From: Candidatus Aenigmatarchaeota archaeon
Lineage (GTDB): Archaea; Aenigmatarchaeota; Aenigmatarchaeia; GW2011-AR5
Reading direction: 5' to 3'
NCBI GenBank assembly: GCA_016198685.1
Contig: JACQID010000004.1
Location: 117,864-181,863, forward strand
DNA length: 64,000 nucleotides
Within the stretch, counting starts at the first letter, position 1; each line of letters opens with the position of its first letter. Shown one piece after another: positions 3,635 to 51,054 of this stretch. Both the position numbers and the translations under genes were made by a program. The notes beneath the pieces were generated by a model. The model was given only the letters and a program-made list of their open reading frames with translations, was not told where the DNA came from and made no database searches.

Positions 3635-4537
3635 ATGGCGCATCATGTAAAGGGCAGTCTCATGTTTGATGACGGAATCAAGGTCCCTACAGGAATGAAG
3701 TATGGAAGCGATTTTTCTCTTAAATTATCGTATGTGCCTGTGAGCAAGGAAGGCACGCCTGTTGTGTATAAAGGGCGGTTTGATGTGGACTGTTTCGATC
3801 TAACTCATTCCGTCAAGGACATGGTATCATCTCATAATGTTCCTGTCATGACAAAGGGTCTTGTACATGAAGGACATAGTGAAGGTGAAATATCCGAGGC
3901 AAATCCTCTTCTTATTACATTGAGAATAAAAGAAGACAGGCTAAGCAGGCCTCCTTCCCAAAGGCAACCTATGCTAGGTTTTGCGTATGTATCTACCAGC
4001 GAAACCGACGAGTTCCTGAAAGAATTAGGGAATTCCTTCAATCCAGAATATCTAGGGGCGGCTTTAGAAAAGATACGACAGAACATAAAATACGGCACGG
4101 AAGCGGAGAATCTTCTTGATGATATTGTACTAAATAGAACAGGCATCTGCAAGGATTTTGCGTGTCTTCTGGATTATGCGGTGAAAAAGGTCGGAGGTAT
4201 TTCTGATATCGCCAAGGGCAGAGCAATGAATCTGCGTGTCAGAGACATACCGGTCTTTCGTACGATAGATGAGGGGGCATACGGTTTCCATGGCTGGAAT
4301 GAAATTTACCATAATGGTAAGTGGAATCTTGTGGATCCTACAATCTACACAAATTCTCCAGATGAAGTCAAAGAACGAGCGATAAATGAAGTACGCGACA
4401 TTTATTTTCTGGAGCCGCCCGTACCCTCGATTTATCTTATAGACGGGCTTAAAGTGTCGGTGAATAAGGGCATGATTATATTGAACGAGCCACTAGTGAC
4501 AGCAAACCTGGTTTCATGCGAAATAGCCGATAAATAG
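3635..4537 (+). CDS. transglutaminase-like cysteine protease superfamily protein
   Basis: Cys-His-Asp core motifs GICKDFACLLDYA and FHGWNEIYHNGKWNLVDPT. 300 aa. Follows atpD after a 41-nt gap. Confidence 0.6.
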   Translation: MAHHVKGSLMFDDGIKVPTGMKYGSDFSLKLSYVPVSKEGTPVVYKGRFDVDCFDLTHSVKDMVSSHNVPVMTKGLVHEGHSEGEISEANPLLITLRIKEDRLSRPPSQRQPMLGFAYVSTSETDEFLKELGNSFNPEYLGAALEKIRQNIKYGTEAENLLDDIVLNRTGICKDFACLLDYAVKKVGGISDIAKGRAMNLRVRDIPVFRTIDEGAYGFHGWNEIYHNGKWNLVDPTIYTNSPDEVKERAINEVRDIYFLEPPVPSIYLIDGLKVSVNKGMIILNEPLVTANLVSCEIADK

Positions 4538-5637: not shown

Positions 5638-6045
5638 ATGAAAGGATATGTAGACGGGTTTGTTATTCCTATAAAGAAAAAGAACGTGAAAGCTTACCTT
5701 AAGATGGCCAGGCTTGGATGCAGGATATGGATGAAGTATGGGGCTCTTGACTACTGGGAATGTGTCGGGGATGAACTCACGGTGAAGATGGGTCCGCCAG
5801 AATCAAGCCCAAGACCAATGTCGCCGTTCATAAAAAAATTCAGCCTCAAGCCGGACGAGACAGTGATATTTTCCTGGATATTATTCAAGTCAAAAGCGCA
5901 CCGCAACAGCGTCAATGCGAAAGTGATGAAAGACCCGGCTATGCAAATGGAGAACTTTGACCCGAAGGAAATGCCTTTTGACGATAAGCGGATGCTCTAC
6001 GGTGGGTTTTCGCCGATTGTTTCTGCAAAACGCAGGCGCGCATGA
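5638..6045 (+). CDS. DUF1428 (YbaA-like) family protein
   Basis: N-terminus MKGYVDGFVIPIKKKNVKAYLKMA...WMKYGALDYWECVGDEL resembles DUF1428 proteins. 135 aa. Confidence 0.5.
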   Translation: MKGYVDGFVIPIKKKNVKAYLKMARLGCRIWMKYGALDYWECVGDELTVKMGPPESSPRPMSPFIKKFSLKPDETVIFSWILFKSKAHRNSVNAKVMKDPAMQMENFDPKEMPFDDKRMLYGGFSPIVSAKRRRA

Positions 6046-6051
6046 TAAAAT

Positions 6052-6081
6052 TATTTTTCTTAGTTCTTTTGCAAAACTAAG
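6052..6081. terminator. hairpin with flanking T-tracts between convergent genes
   Basis: TTTTTCTTAGTTCTTTTGCAAAACTAAG. A 7-bp stem CTTAGTT/AACTAAG lies between the 3' ends of 5638..6045(+) and 6094..7179(-). Confidence 0.4.
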
Positions 6082-6093
6082 TAAATTAGTCTA

Positions 6094-7179
6094 TTATCTA
6101 TTATACACAGACGGACTGACAAATGAATAAGTGCCTGAGCATGTTCCTGATTGGTGCTCTATATTAAGTGTATACGGATCAACTAATTGGATAAGAATTT
6201 TTCCTGTAGGCCCTTTTTCATAATTCCAATACAGACCATTGCGGTCATTCTCATAGCAAAATATGTTGCCATGAGTTATATGCTGGAATCCAACATTCCT
6301 TGTCCCAGTGCTTTCAGGAACGAACATCCACTTCAATGGTTCTGAGATCACGCCCCCTACAGAAATTACAGCAGCTTCTGGGAACCGGTTATCATATCCT
6401 AAATAAAGGTGATTTACCCAGTCTCCGTGCATCCTGTTTCCAGAGTCCCCGTGGAACCATTCGCCCTGGGGTGTCCCGAAAATATCATGCATTACGGTGC
6501 CACAATTTTTATCTTGCCTCTCAATCAAAGCGGTAAGCTGCTCTTTGACCGGGCTCGAGTAATAATCAAAAGGGCATGTTGAATGCAAAGATTTTATTCC
6601 ATATCTTTGCGGATTTATGAAGTTATTATTATGCCTTAAGTCCCATGTCCCGAAATTAAAATTGCCCTGCATTCTCCCGACCGTTCCAAGAACTGTTCCT
6701 GCCTTCACAGGCTTGAGAAGCAGTATAGGGCATTGATTGTCGCCCGGCGTTCCTCCGTATTTGCACTCATAATTCCGGATAAGATCTCGCATCTCCGGCG
6801 AAAATGACTTCACATGATCGACTATGCCGAACACATCCTTGCAGAGCGCATAATGAATCACGTGATCCTCCGGATCTGATGTCACGCCGTATCTTGGCTG
6901 GATGAGGGTTATCCATATGTCCCCGGGCGCATAAAGGGAAACAGTCTTCTCAGTTCCCTGCGTGTCAACGGCGATATAGGTATCAGTGCTGCTGCTGGCA
7001 GCTGCATGTTCCGGAGGGCTTGTCGATCCTATGGGCTCTATTGTCGTTATTTCTTCAATATCAACAGGGGACCGCGTGAAGAAGACATCGTCGCAGTCTG
7101 GCAGAAGCGCCTTCTCAGATGAGGTTAGTATTTCATAAGAAGGCCTGAAGTCGGTTTCCTGCGGAGCGAAGATTCCCAT
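6094..7179 (-). CDS. hypothetical protein, probable body of a secreted/membrane-anchored protein (see frameshift finding)
   Basis: 361-aa ORF with no signal sequence of its own. The upstream overlapping ORF 7125..7337 encodes a signal-anchor. The two frames are joined by an A AAA AAU heptamer. Confidence 0.5.
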   Translation of the reverse strand: MGIFAPQETDFRPSYEILTSSEKALLPDCDDVFFTRSPVDIEEITTIEPIGSTSPPEHAAASSSTDTYIAVDTQGTEKTVSLYAPGDIWITLIQPRYGVTSDPEDHVIHYALCKDVFGIVDHVKSFSPEMRDLIRNYECKYGGTPGDNQCPILLLKPVKAGTVLGTVGRMQGNFNFGTWDLRHNNNFINPQRYGIKSLHSTCPFDYYSSPVKEQLTALIERQDKNCGTVMHDIFGTPQGEWFHGDSGNRMHGDWVNHLYLGYDNRFPEAAVISVGGVISEPLKWMFVPESTGTRNVGFQHITHGNIFCYENDRNGLYWNYEKGPTGKILIQLVDPYTLNIEHQSGTCSGTYSFVSPSVYNR

Positions 7180-7337
7180 GCCGACATCAAAAGGCTCAGA
7201 TTTTTTGGATCCCTCGTTCCAAAGTCACTGGTCTGGTTTCGGCTGCCTTCGTATGCGGCATTCTTATACTGCAAGCTAATGGCAAATATGATGGCAAATA
7301 CCATGATTATTGCAATGATTGGAATGGCGTTCTTCAC
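7125..7337 (-). CDS. signal-anchor peptide ORF, likely N-terminal part of the 6094..7179 protein
   Basis: GTG start. MKNAIPIIAIIMVFAIIFAISL is a hydrophobic anchor. Overlaps the downstream ORF in a different frame. Confidence 0.3.
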   Translation of the reverse strand: MKNAIPIIAIIMVFAIIFAISLQYKNAAYEGSRNQTSDFGTRDPKNLSLLMSAWESSLRRKPTSGLLMKY

Positions 7338-7401
7338 ATTAATTCATGTTCTGGGCGCATATTAATTTCTGAATTTGCCAAGAAATGCATTCTTCATGCA
7401 A

Positions 7402-8598
7402 TCAATAGCGTCTTCCGAAACTGCGTCTTCTTCCGCCAAACCCGCTGCCGCCTCTTCTTTGGCCGCTGCGGTCGTGCATGCGGATGTTGACTTTTATTTT
7501 CGGGAAATCCGATTCTTCTGCTTTTTCTATGTCCTTGACCTGTCTTATGATACGCCTGAAAGGCTCGTGATCCTTGACAGAAAGCAATGTTATAGCCTTG
7601 CCTTCGGCCTCCATTCTTGCGGTTCTGCCTATCCTGTGCGTGTAGGAGTCAGGGTCATTGGGAACATCGAAGTTGAATATATGAGTCACGTCCTTGATGT
7701 CAAGCCCTCTTGATGCGACATCAGTAGCTACAAGCACGTGCGGCCTGCCCTGATGGAAGCTTTCCATGACTTTCATTCTTCTTGCTTGTGGCATGTCGCC
7801 ATGTATTGCTTCAGCATCAACGTTGTTTTCCTTTAGAACACCAGCGAGTATATCCGCCATTCTTTTGGTGCCTGCGAATACTATTGCGCGAGAAGGTTTT
7901 TCTTTCTTGACAAGATGTACCAAGAGTGACAATTTCTCCTCATCCCTTACGTTATAATAATACTGCTTCAGTTTGTGTTTTGGCACGAAAATTTGGGCCT
8001 TGATTTTTATAGGATCCTTCATGAAGTTCCTTATTATGAACATTATTTCATCGGGTATCGTTGCTGAAAACAGCATGGTCTGCCTTTGCTTCGGCAAGCC
8101 AGACATTATCCTCCGTATGTCATCTATGAAACCCATATCAAGCATCCTGTCAGCTTCATCAAGAACGAAGTACTTGACGCCATGAAGGTCTATTGTTCTT
8201 CTTTCCATGTGGTCGAGTATCCTTCCTGGCGTGCCCACGACGACTTCTGCCCGGCGCAGATGGCTTATCTGCGGCTCTATAGATACGCCGCCGAATACGC
8301 GGCAAACCTTTATACCGCCGAAAGAAACCGAATGCATGAAATCGGCTACTTGGTTGGCCAATTCTCTTGTCGGAACAAGAATAAGTGCCTGTACGCCTCC
8401 ATCGCGTTGCACCCCATGAAGTATAGGAACAGAAAAGGCGAGAGTCTTGCCCGAGCCGGTCATGCTCTGGCCTATAACGTCCTTGCCAATCATTCCCGGA
8501 GGTATAGACTTCTCCTGTATCTCGGTAGGCTCGGTTATGCCAAGCTTGTGTATAAGCTCCAGCATTCTTGGGTCTATGTTCATTTCTTCAAACTTCAT
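7402..8598 (-). CDS. DEAD-box ATP-dependent RNA helicase with C-terminal RGG-rich tail
   Basis: Motifs GSGKT, DEAD, SAT, HGD and RGLD. C-terminal tail SGQRRGGSGFGGRRRSFGRRY. Confidence 0.9.
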   Translation of the reverse strand: MKFEEMNIDPRMLELIHKLGITEPTEIQEKSIPPGMIGKDVIGQSMTGSGKTLAFSVPILHGVQRDGGVQALILVPTRELANQVADFMHSVSFGGIKVCRVFGGVSIEPQISHLRRAEVVVGTPGRILDHMERRTIDLHGVKYFVLDEADRMLDMGFIDDIRRIMSGLPKQRQTMLFSATIPDEIMFIIRNFMKDPIKIKAQIFVPKHKLKQYYYNVRDEEKLSLLVHLVKKEKPSRAIVFAGTKRMADILAGVLKENNVDAEAIHGDMPQARRMKVMESFHQGRPHVLVATDVASRGLDIKDVTHIFNFDVPNDPDSYTHRIGRTARMEAEGKAITLLSVKDHEPFRRIIRQVKDIEKAEESDFPKIKVNIRMHDRSGQRRGGSGFGGRRRSFGRRY

Positions 8599-32854: not shown

Positions 32855-33319
32855 TCATCTGGGATCTATTGCATAGACTATATGGCCGGGCTCTCTCAGA
32901 TAAGTTCTCGTGTCTTCGGTGTTACTTGCTGCATTATAAATTCTTGATGTAATGAGGTTCGCGGCGTTTTTGTCCGTATAAGCGTTAAAATAGGCGTTTT
33001 TGCCATAAATAAGGGTTGTCAGATGCGCAGGAGCCCCGGCAGTCAATGAGTTGAGTTCTTCCCGTATTTTTGCTATGCGGGCATTCTTGTTTAAGAGAGG
33101 CAGTCTTTCCTGCCAGCTAACGCAATATACCCTAAAGAGCCCGATGTTTTGGAGTTCTTGCTCTTCAATTTCAGGATCTGGACCTGTATATCGGTATACG
33201 TTGCTGCCATAGCCATCCTGGTTTGGCATATGTACAGGAACCCAGTTTTCAGGATTATGATTCCATTCTGGCATTATGGCAAACAAAGGGCTGTCATCCT
33301 CGTTCCAGATTTCTACCAT
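32855..33319 (-). CDS. hypothetical protein
   Basis: Start at ATG 33319 (MVEIWNEDDSPLF...). TTTATAAAAAAT element ~28 nt upstream. Stop abuts the stop of paralog B tail-to-tail. Confidence 0.4.
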   Translation of the reverse strand: MVEIWNEDDSPLFAIMPEWNHNPENWVPVHMPNQDGYGSNVYRYTGPDPEIEEQELQNIGLFRVYCVSWQERLPLLNKNARIAKIREELNSLTAGAPAHLTTLIYGKNAYFNAYTDKNAANLITSRIYNAASNTEDTRTYLREPGHIVYAIDPR

Positions 33320-33371
33320 TATAATATTTGACAGAAATTTATAAAAAATAGTTAAATTTCCACAAATATAG

Positions 33372-34250
33372 CTATGCTTTTTCAGCCGTCTGCTTTTCAA
33401 CCCATTCTTCCGCACACTCAGCAAGAACCTGCGCCGCTATCTGGTAGCGCAATTTCGGCAAAGAAGGATGTTCTTTCATGACGCGTCCATGGCGGTTAAA
33501 TTCCACGTGAATTCCGAAGCGTATGTCACTGTTTTTTTCGTTGTATTCCTTGACGTGCCTATATAGGGTATAATTCTTGCTTCCGGTAAACAGGCTTTTG
33601 CTTACCTTTACGGTGATGTCTATCCTGACATTGCGTTCTTTCAGCCGCTCCTTGAGTCTCTTCACGAAGAATCTGCGGAAGGAGAAAGCATTCTTGCTGC
33701 CGCCAATATAAGATCTGTCGGGGCCGAACCCCAAAAGCACATCGGCTTGCCGGTGGGAATGCATGCCATGGTAAGAAAGTATTAGCTTAGGGTTCAGGGA
33801 CTCAATAGTTTTATGATAGAACTCAAAAATATGCATCAGGTTTTTGTTCGTACTGATTGGAATATGCGATTCCGTCTCCTCATGCCCTTCGTCTGCCATG
33901 AACGGCAAGACCCTTAACCTCATGCCTTCGGCATCGGAGGGCCTGGCTAAATCAAGCTCTGTTCTCAGAATTGTTGGTATTATGTACGCAGATTGGGAAT
34001 GCCATGCACCAAGTTTGGCTAGGGTTGCCGTATTCGCATCGCCTATTCCGATGTAGGCTTTCTTGCCGTGCTTAGGAGATTTTATTCGTGTAGTTTGCGC
34101 ATGCTCGGCAACAATGAGTATTTTGTTACGAGAATAGTCTTCCAGCGTCTGAAAGAGAAGGTTGTTGGCGTTCTGGGGCCTGAAATTAGACTCGAACGCG
34201 GAAAGGTCTTCTTCGCTTTTCAAAAGGTTGAGCGTTTTTATCTGCCCCAC
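33372..34250 (-). CDS. paralog C of the hydrolase-like family
   Basis: ILIVAEHAQTT and LILSYHGMHS. GTG start at 34250 with SD GAGGAG 5 nt upstream. Overlaps the stop of the upstream ATP-grasp gene. Confidence 0.5.
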   Translation of the reverse strand: MGQIKTLNLLKSEEDLSAFESNFRPQNANNLLFQTLEDYSRNKILIVAEHAQTTRIKSPKHGKKAYIGIGDANTATLAKLGAWHSQSAYIIPTILRTELDLARPSDAEGMRLRVLPFMADEGHEETESHIPISTNKNLMHIFEFYHKTIESLNPKLILSYHGMHSHRQADVLLGFGPDRSYIGGSKNAFSFRRFFVKRLKERLKERNVRIDITVKVSKSLFTGSKNYTLYRHVKEYNEKNSDIRFGIHVEFNRHGRVMKEHPSLPKLRYQIAAQVLAECAEEWVEKQTAEKA

Positions 34251-50330: not shown

Positions 50331-50654
50331 ATGGATAAATTTATAGTATCTATGATCGGAAAAGCTATTTATGTTCTCCGTTTAAATGAAAATATGCCTA
50401 TTGAATATCGGATCGTAGATTTGCGGGATATACAAGGTCGCGGCGGAGTTAAACCCGTTGAAGCATATTTACCAATGCCGCCCCATCATGATTTGCCATT
50501 TGTCAGGGTAAAATATATGGTTAATGGCACGCAGATGCTCAATGTATTCGACCGTGATAAACGCGTAAATTTTATGCACGATCAGGGAGAGCCATGGTAT
50601 AACGATCTAAAGGAATTATTGCCCGATATATTGGAACGTACAGATAGAAAATAA
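50331..50654 (+). CDS. hypothetical protein
   Basis: Internal ATG chosen to avoid overlap with the GIY-YIG gene. No recognisable motifs. Confidence 0.3.
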   Translation: MDKFIVSMIGKAIYVLRLNENMPIEYRIVDLRDIQGRGGVKPVEAYLPMPPHHDLPFVRVKYMVNGTQMLNVFDRDKRVNFMHDQGEPWYNDLKELLPDILERTDRK

Positions 50655-50729
50655 TGACGTAATGGATCATCTGCATACAAAGTTAATGATGATTCATGAA
50701 CATTCGCAATCCACTGGATATTGCTTCTC

Positions 50730-51041
50730 CTACAACTCGGAAAACGCTTCAGCGTTATATGTCCATAGTTTGCACATGCGTCTTCCGCGAACAGGACCCC
50801 TTTGTATTTCATAAATGTTGGATGTAAAATCGCGTATGTCGGTACCTGCTTGGAAAAATAGAGAGAATTTGCCGTGAAGTATTGCGTTTACGCGTGCTGT
50901 GTCATAAAGAGGACCGTAGTAGGATCGTAAATGATCCCTTATTTCAGGGACAGTTGCATATCCACCTTTTGTGTTTATTGCTTCTTTTATTCTCCCCCAT
51001 ACGAGAGGATTGCTTAAATCATCAGCTTTATATTTCATCAT
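50730..51041 (-). CDS. hypothetical protein downstream of EF-2
   Basis: ATG at 51041, 13 nt after the EF-2 stop, on the same strand. 103 aa. Confidence 0.4.
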   Translation of the reverse strand: MMKYKADDLSNPLVWGRIKEAINTKGGYATVPEIRDHLRSYYGPLYDTARVNAILHGKFSLFFQAGTDIRDFTSNIYEIQRGPVRGRRMCKLWTYNAEAFSEL

Positions 51042-51054
51042 CAAGTGATGTCAA

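What the first reader, a model, noticed from the sequence alone, without database searches (positions are those of the whole stretch)
7125..7337. Candidate -1 frameshift at an A-AAA-AAU heptamer joining a signal-anchor ORF to a 361-aa body
On the minus strand, a 70-aa ORF encodes a hydrophobic signal-anchor and ends at 7125. It overlaps, in a different frame, the start region of a 361-aa ORF (6094..7179) that has no secretion signal of its own. Reading the mRNA, the zero-frame codons CCA AAA AAU (plus coordinates 7200-7208, T6 run 7201-7206) form a classical X-XXY-YYZ slippery heptamer. A -1 slip continues as UCU GAG CCU UUU GAU GUC GGC AUG, which is SEPFDVGM... and runs into the 361-aa frame. 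The predicted fusion is ...GTRDPKN-SEPFDVGMGIFAPQ... The same heptamer drives -1 programmed frameshifting in the Sulfolobus fucA1 gene. The alternative is a homopolymer indel, either a sequencing error or a pseudogene.
Basis: partly seen in the sequence, partly recalled or inferred. Interest (0 to 1): 0.6.

Follow-up and report, generated by a model that had tools for sequence, protein, structure and literature searches.

The report
Frameshift-broken surface protein gene at A-run
A gene for a membrane-anchored, cell-wall-hydrolase-like surface protein in a DPANN archaeon is split in two by a genuine one-base frameshift at a run of six A's, and it looks like a recent ordinary mutation, not a programmed recoding signal.

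Summary
On the minus strand a 70-aa signal-anchor ORF (7337..7125) overlaps a 361-aa ORF (7179..6094). The zero-frame codons CCA AAA AAT place an A-AAA-AAT heptamer at 7206..7200. A -1 shift there joins the two ORFs.

The break is not a random sequencing error. Four separate assemblies from four SRA runs are 100% identical to the window, including the A6 run.

Nothing supports "programmed":
- The frameshift is unique to this genome.
- The downstream RNA folds no better than shuffled sequence (z -0.3 and -1.2).
- In-frame A-AAA-AAH heptamers occur 22 times in 53 kb of ordinary coding sequence, as often as in the other two phases.

The body shows no decay: all invariant residues and all 8 Cys are kept, and its rate is normal. 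The most likely reading is therefore a recent 1-nt deletion at or just before the A-run. Any full-length protein would come only from incidental slippage. Interest is low to moderate.

The parts
7125..7337 (-). ORF1 in the zero frame, 70 aa, GTG start. Residues 1-46 (7337..7200) are the true N-terminus of the gene: a signal anchor and the start of the linker. Residues 47-70 are out-of-frame read-through ending at TAA 7127..7125.
   Evidence: Hydropathy maximum 2.96. The N-terminus aligns with the anchors of homologs.
7200..7206 (-). A-AAA-AAT heptamer in the zero frame (CC[A AAA AAT]). The A6 run is 7206..7201. This is the candidate slip site and the most likely site of the 1-nt deletion.
   Evidence: Identical in 4 independent assemblies. 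Relatives carry a codon-aligned AAA AAA TCN in the linker.
7225..7227 (-). TGA that closes the -1 (ORF2) frame upstream. It sets the 5' limit of the interval in which the frames can be joined.
   Evidence: read by hand. frame-1 translation '...DQ*LWNEGSKKSEPFDVGMG'.
6094..7224 (-). Open -1 frame. ORF2 as called starts at ATG 7179 and is 361 aa. It encodes the rest of the linker and the whole conserved Cys-rich body, which has an M23/LytM-fold domain plus a C-terminal beta domain. Stop codon TAA at 6096..6094.
7359..7368 (-). AAATTAATAT, a TATA-box-like element. 21 nt separate it from the ORF1 GTG, which would imply a leaderless or short-leader mRNA starting at ORF1. This is inference only.
   Evidence: Sequence read. 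Not tested.

Best explanation
This is one gene that has been broken by a real frameshift mutation. It encodes an extracytoplasmic protein with three parts: an N-terminal membrane anchor, a variable linker, and a conserved body with 8 cysteines and an M23/LytM (peptidoglycan-hydrolase-like) fold. The break is a 1-nt deletion. It lies in the non-conserved linker, at or immediately 5' of an A-run (A7 to A6 if the lost base was an A). The mutation is fixed in this Aenigmarchaeota population.

Standard decoding yields only a 70-aa anchor peptide. The 361-aa body has no signal, no recognisable ribosome-binding site and an internal ATG, so it would be made poorly and would stay in the cytoplasm. There a disulfide-rich wall-active domain is unlikely to work.

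The lesion is recent, because the body carries no second lesion and no rate acceleration. A-AAA-AAT is intrinsically slippery, so a few per cent of ribosomes may restore the full-length protein, as in fucA1. That would be a by-product of where homopolymer indels happen, not a selected recoding signal.

Shown here: the ORF geometry, the single-ORF state of homologs, identity across assemblies, the fold, and the absence of a stimulatory structure. Inferred: the direction and age of the mutation, the lack of export of ORF2, and the slippage.
For: - Homologs are 400-480 aa single ORFs with an N-terminal anchor, a lipobox or a KRGF motif, then a variable linker and a conserved body.
- All 10 genome loci are single ORFs of this kind.
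- Among 20 JGI metagenome loci examined, the ones that reach the N-terminus are single ORFs except two odd cases.
- The window sequence, including the A6 run, is 100% identical in Logan assemblies of SRR12113430, SRR12113385, SRR12113384 and SRR12113383. No contig breaks at the run.
- No intact allele is in the protein database or in JGI contigs.
- The -1 frame reads AAA AAA TCT GAG CCT (KKSEP). This matches the codon-aligned GAC AAA AAA TCG GAA CCC (DKKSEP) in P0005 and GCG AAA AAA TCG in P0003. The downstream frame is therefore already the ancestral one at the run, and the lost base lies at its 5' edge.
- RNA downstream of the heptamer is unremarkable: z -0.30 over 60 nt and -1.17 over 100 nt.
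- In-frame A-AAA-AAH heptamers are as common as out-of-phase ones in normal genes (22 against 25 and 22).
- The body keeps every family-invariant residue and all 8 Cys. Its distance to outgroups is 0.453, inside the 0.425-0.480 range of intact relatives.
- The M23/LytM fold implies an extracytoplasmic site of action.
- No SD-like motif precedes the ORF2 ATG.
Against: - The intact, non-accelerated body is equally what a functional frameshift-expressed gene would look like.
- The heptamer is exactly the one proven to work in the archaeal fucA1 gene at 5-10% (PMC1616953). It is in the correct phase.
- fucA1 itself is frameshifted in only some strains and has only a putative stem-loop (PMC8211752). 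Lack of conservation therefore does not rule out use.
- The four SRA runs probably come from one study and site, so they show the allele is real there but not how old it is.
- Consensus contigs cannot reveal minor A7 alleles.
Confidence: 0.65

Rival explanations
1. Functional -1 ribosomal frameshifting of the fucA1 type. Ribosomes slip on A-AAA-AAU (tRNA-Lys in the P site, tRNA-Asn in the A site) and produce a set fraction of the full-length anchored protein. The organism depends on this, or uses it to keep the level of a potentially dangerous wall-active surface protein low.
For: - A canonical heptamer sits in the right phase, inside the only interval where the frames can be joined.
- The fusion restores the family architecture.
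- The body is undegraded and its rate is normal.
- The allele is fixed in 4 runs.
- The same heptamer gives 5% frameshifting in E. coli and about 10% in a Sulfolobus in vitro system.
Against: - The frameshift is unique among about 80 homologous proteins and loci.
- The site lies in a non-conserved linker.
- No stimulatory structure is present, and there is no Rfam hit.
- The heptamer is not avoided in 22 normal in-frame positions. So either it is not very slippery in this organism or slippage is tolerated as noise.
- The GAGGG element upstream is only 4 nt from the heptamer, and SD-like motifs are rare in this genome (6 of 45 genes).
Confidence: 0.15
2. Phase variation. The A-run is a contingency tract whose length changes by slipped-strand mispairing, which switches the surface protein on (A7) and off (A6) within the population.
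For: The homopolymer lies in the 5' part of a gene for a surface-exposed protein of an episymbiont. The gene is otherwise intact.
Against: - Four runs give the same A6 consensus, and no assembly breaks at the tract.
- No A7 product is in the database.
- Six or seven A's is short for efficient switching (general knowledge).
- 98 other A/T runs of 6-7 exist in this 64 kb, so the tract is not special.
Confidence: 0.07
3. Sequencing or assembly artefact. The true genome has A7 and a single 415-aa ORF.
For: The break is at a homopolymer, and the source is a metagenome-assembled genome.
Against: Five assemblies (the MAG plus 4 independent per-run Logan assemblies) agree base for base over 2.1-4.1 kb. 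An A6 tract is short for systematic short-read indel error (general knowledge). No other split genes were seen in the window.
Confidence: 0.05
4. Two working genes. ORF2 is translated from its own ATG (7179) as a signal-less protein, and ORF1 is a separate small membrane protein.
For: The ATG at 7179 lies just upstream of the first conserved residues, so the whole folded body would be made. One metagenomic homolog (L035) also lacks an anchor.
Against: - The family is anchored in virtually all members.
- It has 8 conserved Cys and an M23/LytM fold, which is typical of exported proteins.
- No SD-like motif precedes the ATG, which is internal to a probably leaderless mRNA (inference).
- The last 24 residues of ORF1 are unconserved out-of-frame sequence.
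Confidence: 0.05

Closest known systems
Sulfolobus solfataricus fucA1 (SSO11867/SSO3060), expressed by -1 frameshifting
   Same: An archaeal gene split into two ORFs related by a -1 shift. It has the identical A-AAA-AAT heptamer in the zero frame, and homologs in other organisms are full length (PMC1616953 and PMC8211752).
   Different: - fucA1 has experimental proof: mass spectrometry of junction peptides, site mutants and in vitro translation.
- It has a 40-nt overlap with flanking rare CAC codons and a putative stem-loop.
- Its slippery region is 100% conserved at the DNA level among Sulfolobales.
- Here there are no data on expression and no significant structure.
- The next zero-frame codon, CTG, is not rare (17.2 per thousand).
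- The site sits in a non-conserved linker with no close relatives available.
Interrupted coding sequences or pseudogenes at A/T tracts in archaeal genomes, as surveyed by van Passel et al. 2007 and Cobucci-Ponzano et al. 2010 (cited in PMC8211752)
   Same: A single frameshift in an A-rich tract that resembles a slippery sequence. The gene is otherwise intact and its expression is untested.
   Different: None of substance. This locus is one more example, in a DPANN genome.
E. coli dnaX -1 frameshift (A-AAA-AAG with an upstream SD-like element and a downstream hairpin). This comparison rests on my own knowledge.
   Same: A poly-A heptamer decoded by tRNA-Lys. A purine-rich GAGGG element lies upstream.
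   Different: dnaX has an SD-like element about 10 nt upstream and a strong hairpin downstream, and both are conserved. Here the spacing is 4 nt, SD use appears rare in this genome, and no hairpin stands out.
M23/LytM-domain proteins (Csd3, NMB0315, EnvC, SpoIIQ, lysostaphin)
   Different: - There is no Pfam Peptidase_M23 hit and no PDB sequence hit.
- The position expected for the HxH zinc motif appears to read N-F-N-F. This is inference from a non-significant hhalign register.
- There is an extra C-terminal beta domain and there are 8 conserved Cys.
- The family is restricted to DPANN archaea and CPR bacteria.

Membership tests
Programmed -1 ribosomal frameshift site | An X-XXY-YYZ slippery heptamer in the zero frame, inside the overlap of the two ORFs | tested here: met
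   CC[A AAA AAT] at 7206..7200. The overlap interval is 7224..7125.
Programmed -1 ribosomal frameshift site | A stimulatory RNA structure (hairpin or pseudoknot) 5-9 nt 3' of the heptamer | tested here: not met
   The MFE of the 60 nt and 100 nt downstream is not better than shuffles: z -0.30 (68 of 200 shuffles as good) and z -1.17 (23 of 200). Pseudoknots are not evaluated by this tool. No Rfam element was found.
Programmed -1 ribosomal frameshift site | The frameshift and the slippery site are conserved among orthologs | tested here: not met
   52 database proteins, 10 genome loci and the JGI loci are single ORFs. The linkers are unalignable and none carries the frameshift. Caveat: the closest relative has only about 77% amino-acid identity and is not syntenic.
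Programmed -1 ribosomal frameshift site | The trans-frame protein is actually produced, and production depends on the site | not testable with these tools
   This needs proteomics, a reporter or in vitro translation.
Frameshifted (interrupted) gene from a homopolymer indel | Homologs encode both parts as one ORF, and the break lies at a mononucleotide run | tested here: met
   The A6 run is the only run of 5 or more bases in the joinable interval.
Frameshifted (interrupted) gene from a homopolymer indel | The lesion is present in the organism's DNA and is not an assembly error | tested here: met
   100% identity, including A6, in 4 independent per-run assemblies. Raw reads were not inspected.
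Frameshifted (interrupted) gene from a homopolymer indel | Signs of relaxed selection: further lesions, lost invariant residues, or an accelerated rate | tested here: not met
   There are no further stops or shifts. All invariant columns and all 8 Cys are kept, and the distance to outgroups is 0.453 against 0.425-0.480 for intact relatives. This fits a recent lesion or a gene still in use.
Phase-variable contingency locus | Tract-length polymorphism between or within samples | tested here: not met
   All 4 runs have an A6 consensus, with no contig break at the tract. Minor alleles are not visible in contigs.
Peptidase M23 / LytM domain | The characteristic beta-rich fold | tested here: met
Peptidase M23 / LytM domain | The HxxxD and HxH zinc-binding and catalytic motifs | tested here: inconclusive
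   There is no PF01551 hit. hhalign against lysostaphin is not significant (probability 1.1%), but its register puts GNFNFG where PHLHF is expected. Invariant His and Asp residues exist elsewhere (H58, D105 and near-invariant H122 in ORF2 numbering). A structural superposition was not available.

The most novel reading that the evidence does not exclude
The frameshift is used. A DPANN (Aenigmarchaeota) archaeon would express a membrane-anchored LytM/M23-like surface protein only through -1 ribosomal slippage at A-AAA-AAU, setting a low fixed dose of a wall-active protein. This would be only the second cellular archaeal -1 frameshift after fucA1, and the first in an episymbiotic lineage.
Probability: 0.12. 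Interest if true: 0.6.

Novelty: new member of a known kind. Interest (0 to 1): 0.22.

Why it matters
As it stands, this is one more interrupted gene at an A-tract, a well-known class in archaeal genomes. Its practical value is as an annotation correction. HY364_01225 (361 aa, 'hypothetical protein') and the 70-aa ORF upstream are two pieces of one gene for an anchored LytM/M23-fold protein.

If frameshifting were shown experimentally, it would extend cellular archaeal -1 recoding beyond the single fucA1 case. It would also give a natural example that lacks an obvious stimulatory structure.

The protein family itself may be the more interesting lead. It is uncharacterised, matches no Pfam family, is Cys-rich and LytM-like, and is shared at more than 50% identity between DPANN archaea and CPR bacteria. 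It could be relevant to how episymbionts deal with host envelopes.

Tried and rejected
- **Sequence searches for the protein.** Pfam on both ORFs gave only sub-threshold noise (GATase_7, DUF6520). A PDB sequence search with the family profile returned only a spurious TBP hit at E 0.28.
- **Rfam.** A permissive scan of 6900..7450 found nothing relevant.
- **Intact allele.** An exact-flank search for A4-A9 alleles in JGI metagenome contigs gave 0 hits. This population is evidently not in that collection.
- **Catalytic register.** I use it only as a hint for register.
- **Other split genes in the window.** Same-strand overlapping ORF pairs at about 53.3 kb (S7 and EF-2) are separate, well-known genes with an over-called start. 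The pairs at about 33.4 kb and 50.7 kb have no Pfam hits and were not pursued.
- **Termination-reinitiation coupling.** I considered this between ORF1 and ORF2. I rejected it because the ORF2 ATG lies 54 nt upstream of the ORF1 stop.
- **Transcriptional slippage as the main route.** I considered this unlikely because A6 is shorter than the tracts known to give appreciable RNA polymerase slippage (my own knowledge). It was not tested.
- **dN/dS against relatives.** I did not attempt this. The closest homolog is only about 77% identical in protein, so synonymous sites are saturated.

Full report
**1. The observation**

On the minus strand, ORF1 runs from a GTG at 7337 to TAA at 7127..7125. It is 70 aa and begins MKNAIPIIAIIMVFAIIFAISLQ. 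ORF2 runs from ATG 7179 to TAA 6096..6094 and is 361 aa.

The zero-frame codons are GAT CCA AAA AAT CTG. The A6 run is therefore 7206..7201, and the heptamer A-AAA-AAT is 7206..7200. A -1 slip continues TCT GAG CCT TTT GAT GTC GGC ATG, which is SEPFDVGM, into ORF2.

The -1 frame is closed upstream by TGA 7227..7225, so the frames can only be joined within 7224..7125. ORF1 has a strong hydrophobic segment (KD19 maximum 2.96). The first 60 residues of ORF2 do not (0.39).

**2. One gene or two**

A search with the conceptual fusion found 52 proteins. Apart from the 361-aa product of this very genome (P0001, 'Candidatus Aenigmarchaeota archaeon HY364_01225'), complete homologs are 400-480 aa. They share the same plan (alignment A1):
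- an N-terminal anchor, which may be a plain TM segment, a lipobox-like xGC, or a K(R)GF motif followed by a hydrophobic stretch;
- a linker of very variable length and sequence;
- a conserved body that begins at R..YE.LTE.ER..LP.C.

Ten loci from GTDB species representatives all encode this as one ORF. So do the JGI metagenome loci that reach the N-terminus, with two oddities, L023 and L035.

The window's break falls in the linker. ORF1 residues 1-46 supply the anchor, and ORF2 supplies the whole conserved body. The two ORFs are therefore halves of one gene, and only this genome has it split.

**3. Is the break real**

The 361-aa protein is encoded on four Logan contigs. These were assembled separately from four SRA runs: SRR12113430, SRR12113385, SRR12113384 and SRR12113383. 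All four are 100% identical to the window over 2.1-4.1 kb, including the A6 run, and none ends at the run.

No full-length 100%-identical product exists in the protein collection. An exact-flank search allowing 4-9 bases in place of the run found nothing in JGI contigs.

A random assembly or sequencing error is therefore unlikely. Minor alleles cannot be judged from contigs, and the runs probably come from one study.

**4. Where and what was the lesion**

Two relatives carry a codon-aligned AAA AAA TCN in their linkers:
- P0005 has GAC AAA AAA TCG GAA CCC, which reads DKKSEP.
- P0003 has GCG AAA AAA TCG, which reads AKKS.

The window's -1 frame reads AAA AAA TCT GAG CCT, which is KKSEP. If this short match is homology and not chance in a K/S/E/P-rich linker, the downstream frame is already the ancestral one at the run. 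The missing base then lies at its 5' edge: GAT CCN AAA AAA TCT became GAT CC- AAA AAA TCT. That is an A7 to A6 contraction if N was A. Either way the lesion is a 1-nt deletion.

**5. Is there evidence for programming**

- *Conservation.* There is none. The frameshift and heptamer are unique, and the linker is not conserved.
- *Stimulatory structure.* The 60 nt and 100 nt following the heptamer fold no better than dinucleotide shuffles, with z -0.30 and -1.17. There is no Rfam hit.
- *Motif statistics.* In 45 long ORFs (53,127 nt), AAAAAA[ATC] occurs 22 times in the slippery phase and 25 and 22 times in the other phases. The genome neither avoids nor enriches the heptamer, so its presence here carries little weight. 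A/T runs of 6-7 occur 98 times in the window. A deletion in a 7-run beginning at codon position 3 produces X-XXY-YYZ automatically.
- *Flanking codons.* The next zero-frame codon, CTG, is not rare (17.2 per thousand). This differs from the rare CAC codons flanking the fucA1 site.
- *Upstream element.* A GAGGG lies 4 nt upstream of the heptamer, but SD-like motifs precede only 6 of 45 genes here.

**6. Is the gene decaying**

No. There is no second lesion. All family-invariant residues and all 8 cysteines are kept. The mean distance of the body to seven outgroup sequences is 0.453, within the 0.425-0.480 range of seven intact relatives. This fits either a recent mutation or a gene still expressed. 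It does not discriminate between the two.

**7. What the protein is**

There is no Pfam family and no PDB sequence relative. AlphaFold2 with the 49-sequence alignment gives a confident model, with pLDDT 93.2 and pTM 0.88.

The expected HxH position seems to read N-F-N-F, by a non-significant hhalign register. The domain may therefore be a degenerate LytM domain of the EnvC or SpoIIQ kind. This is inference.

Such domains act outside the cytoplasmic membrane. Together with the 8 conserved Cys, this argues that ORF2 made from its own ATG, without an anchor, would not be functional.

**8. Comparison with the known case**

fucA1 of S. solfataricus has the same heptamer. It is expressed by -1 frameshifting at about 5% in E. 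coli and about 10% in vitro in Sulfolobus, and this was proven by junction peptides and site mutants (PMC1616953).

The review PMC8211752 notes that many archaeal interrupted genes have frameshifts in A/T tracts resembling slippery sites, and that their expression is untested. The present locus belongs to that class. It shares the heptamer with fucA1 but none of the supporting evidence.

**9. Verdict**

- Most likely (about 0.65): a recent, genuine 1-nt deletion at an A-tract splitting a gene for an anchored LytM-like surface protein, with at most incidental slippage.
- Functional frameshifting: about 0.15.
- Phase variation: about 0.07.
- Artefact: about 0.05.
- Two independent genes: about 0.05.

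The finding is real and correctly described, but ordinary. The decisive data cannot be obtained with these tools. They are read pile-ups, junction peptides and a reporter assay.

Noticed in passing
window 6094-7179 (-), and loci L008-L039: The protein family has no Pfam model and no name. It is shared at 50-58% identity between DPANN archaea (Aenigm-, Woese- and Micrarchaeota) and CPR bacteria (Paceibacterota, Saccharibacteria, Uhrbacteria). It has an M23/LytM-fold domain, a C-terminal beta domain and 8 conserved Cys. The cross-domain distribution among episymbionts suggests horizontal transfer and a role at the host interface.
   Followed up: partly
ORF2 residues about 165-180 (window about 6640-6690, minus strand): The invariant motif GxxQGNFNFGTWDLR sits where M23 peptidases have the PHLHF (HxH) zinc motif, judging from the VKAGTxLG strand that precedes it. 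The domain may be catalytically degenerate or may use a different site. This rests on a non-significant hhalign register.
   Followed up: partly
N-termini of homologs P0003, P0005, P0006, P0013, P0025, P0030 (alignment A1), and L029, L030, L032: Many homologs start with M..K(R)GF followed by a hydrophobic stretch. This resembles a class III (prepilin-like) signal peptide cleavage motif. Others have a lipobox-like xGC. The window copy has MKNA-IPIIAII instead.
   Followed up: no
L023 about 1740-1790 (Ga0209518_1017202) and L035 about 1974-2000 (Ga0209542_10034948): These are two other irregular copies. In L023 a stop codon lies just before the TM segment, and the first start codon is a GTG inside it (compare the intact L032). 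L035 is a 324-aa copy that starts at MPPVPMGKIVSIEPIGS and lacks the anchor, the linker and the LPxC motif.
   Followed up: partly
window 7359-7368 (-): AAATTAATAT is separated by 21 nt from the ORF1 GTG and looks like an archaeal TATA box. This would make the mRNA leaderless or nearly so. SD-like motifs precede only 6 of 45 long ORFs in the window.
   Followed up: no
window 6059-6081: An inverted repeat, CTTAGTT-N9-AACTAAG, is followed by an A/T-rich stretch. It lies between the convergent ORF2 and the DUF1428 gene (5638-6045, +). It may be a bidirectional terminator.
   Followed up: no
window 32855-34250 (-) and 50582-51044 (-): These are same-strand ORF pairs overlapping by 53 nt and 83 nt, with no Pfam hits. 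They could be start over-calls or further split genes.
   Followed up: partly
window 3635-4537 (+): A 300-aa ORF has a sub-threshold transglutaminase-core hit (E 2e-4, 22 bits against a cutoff of 23).
   Followed up: no
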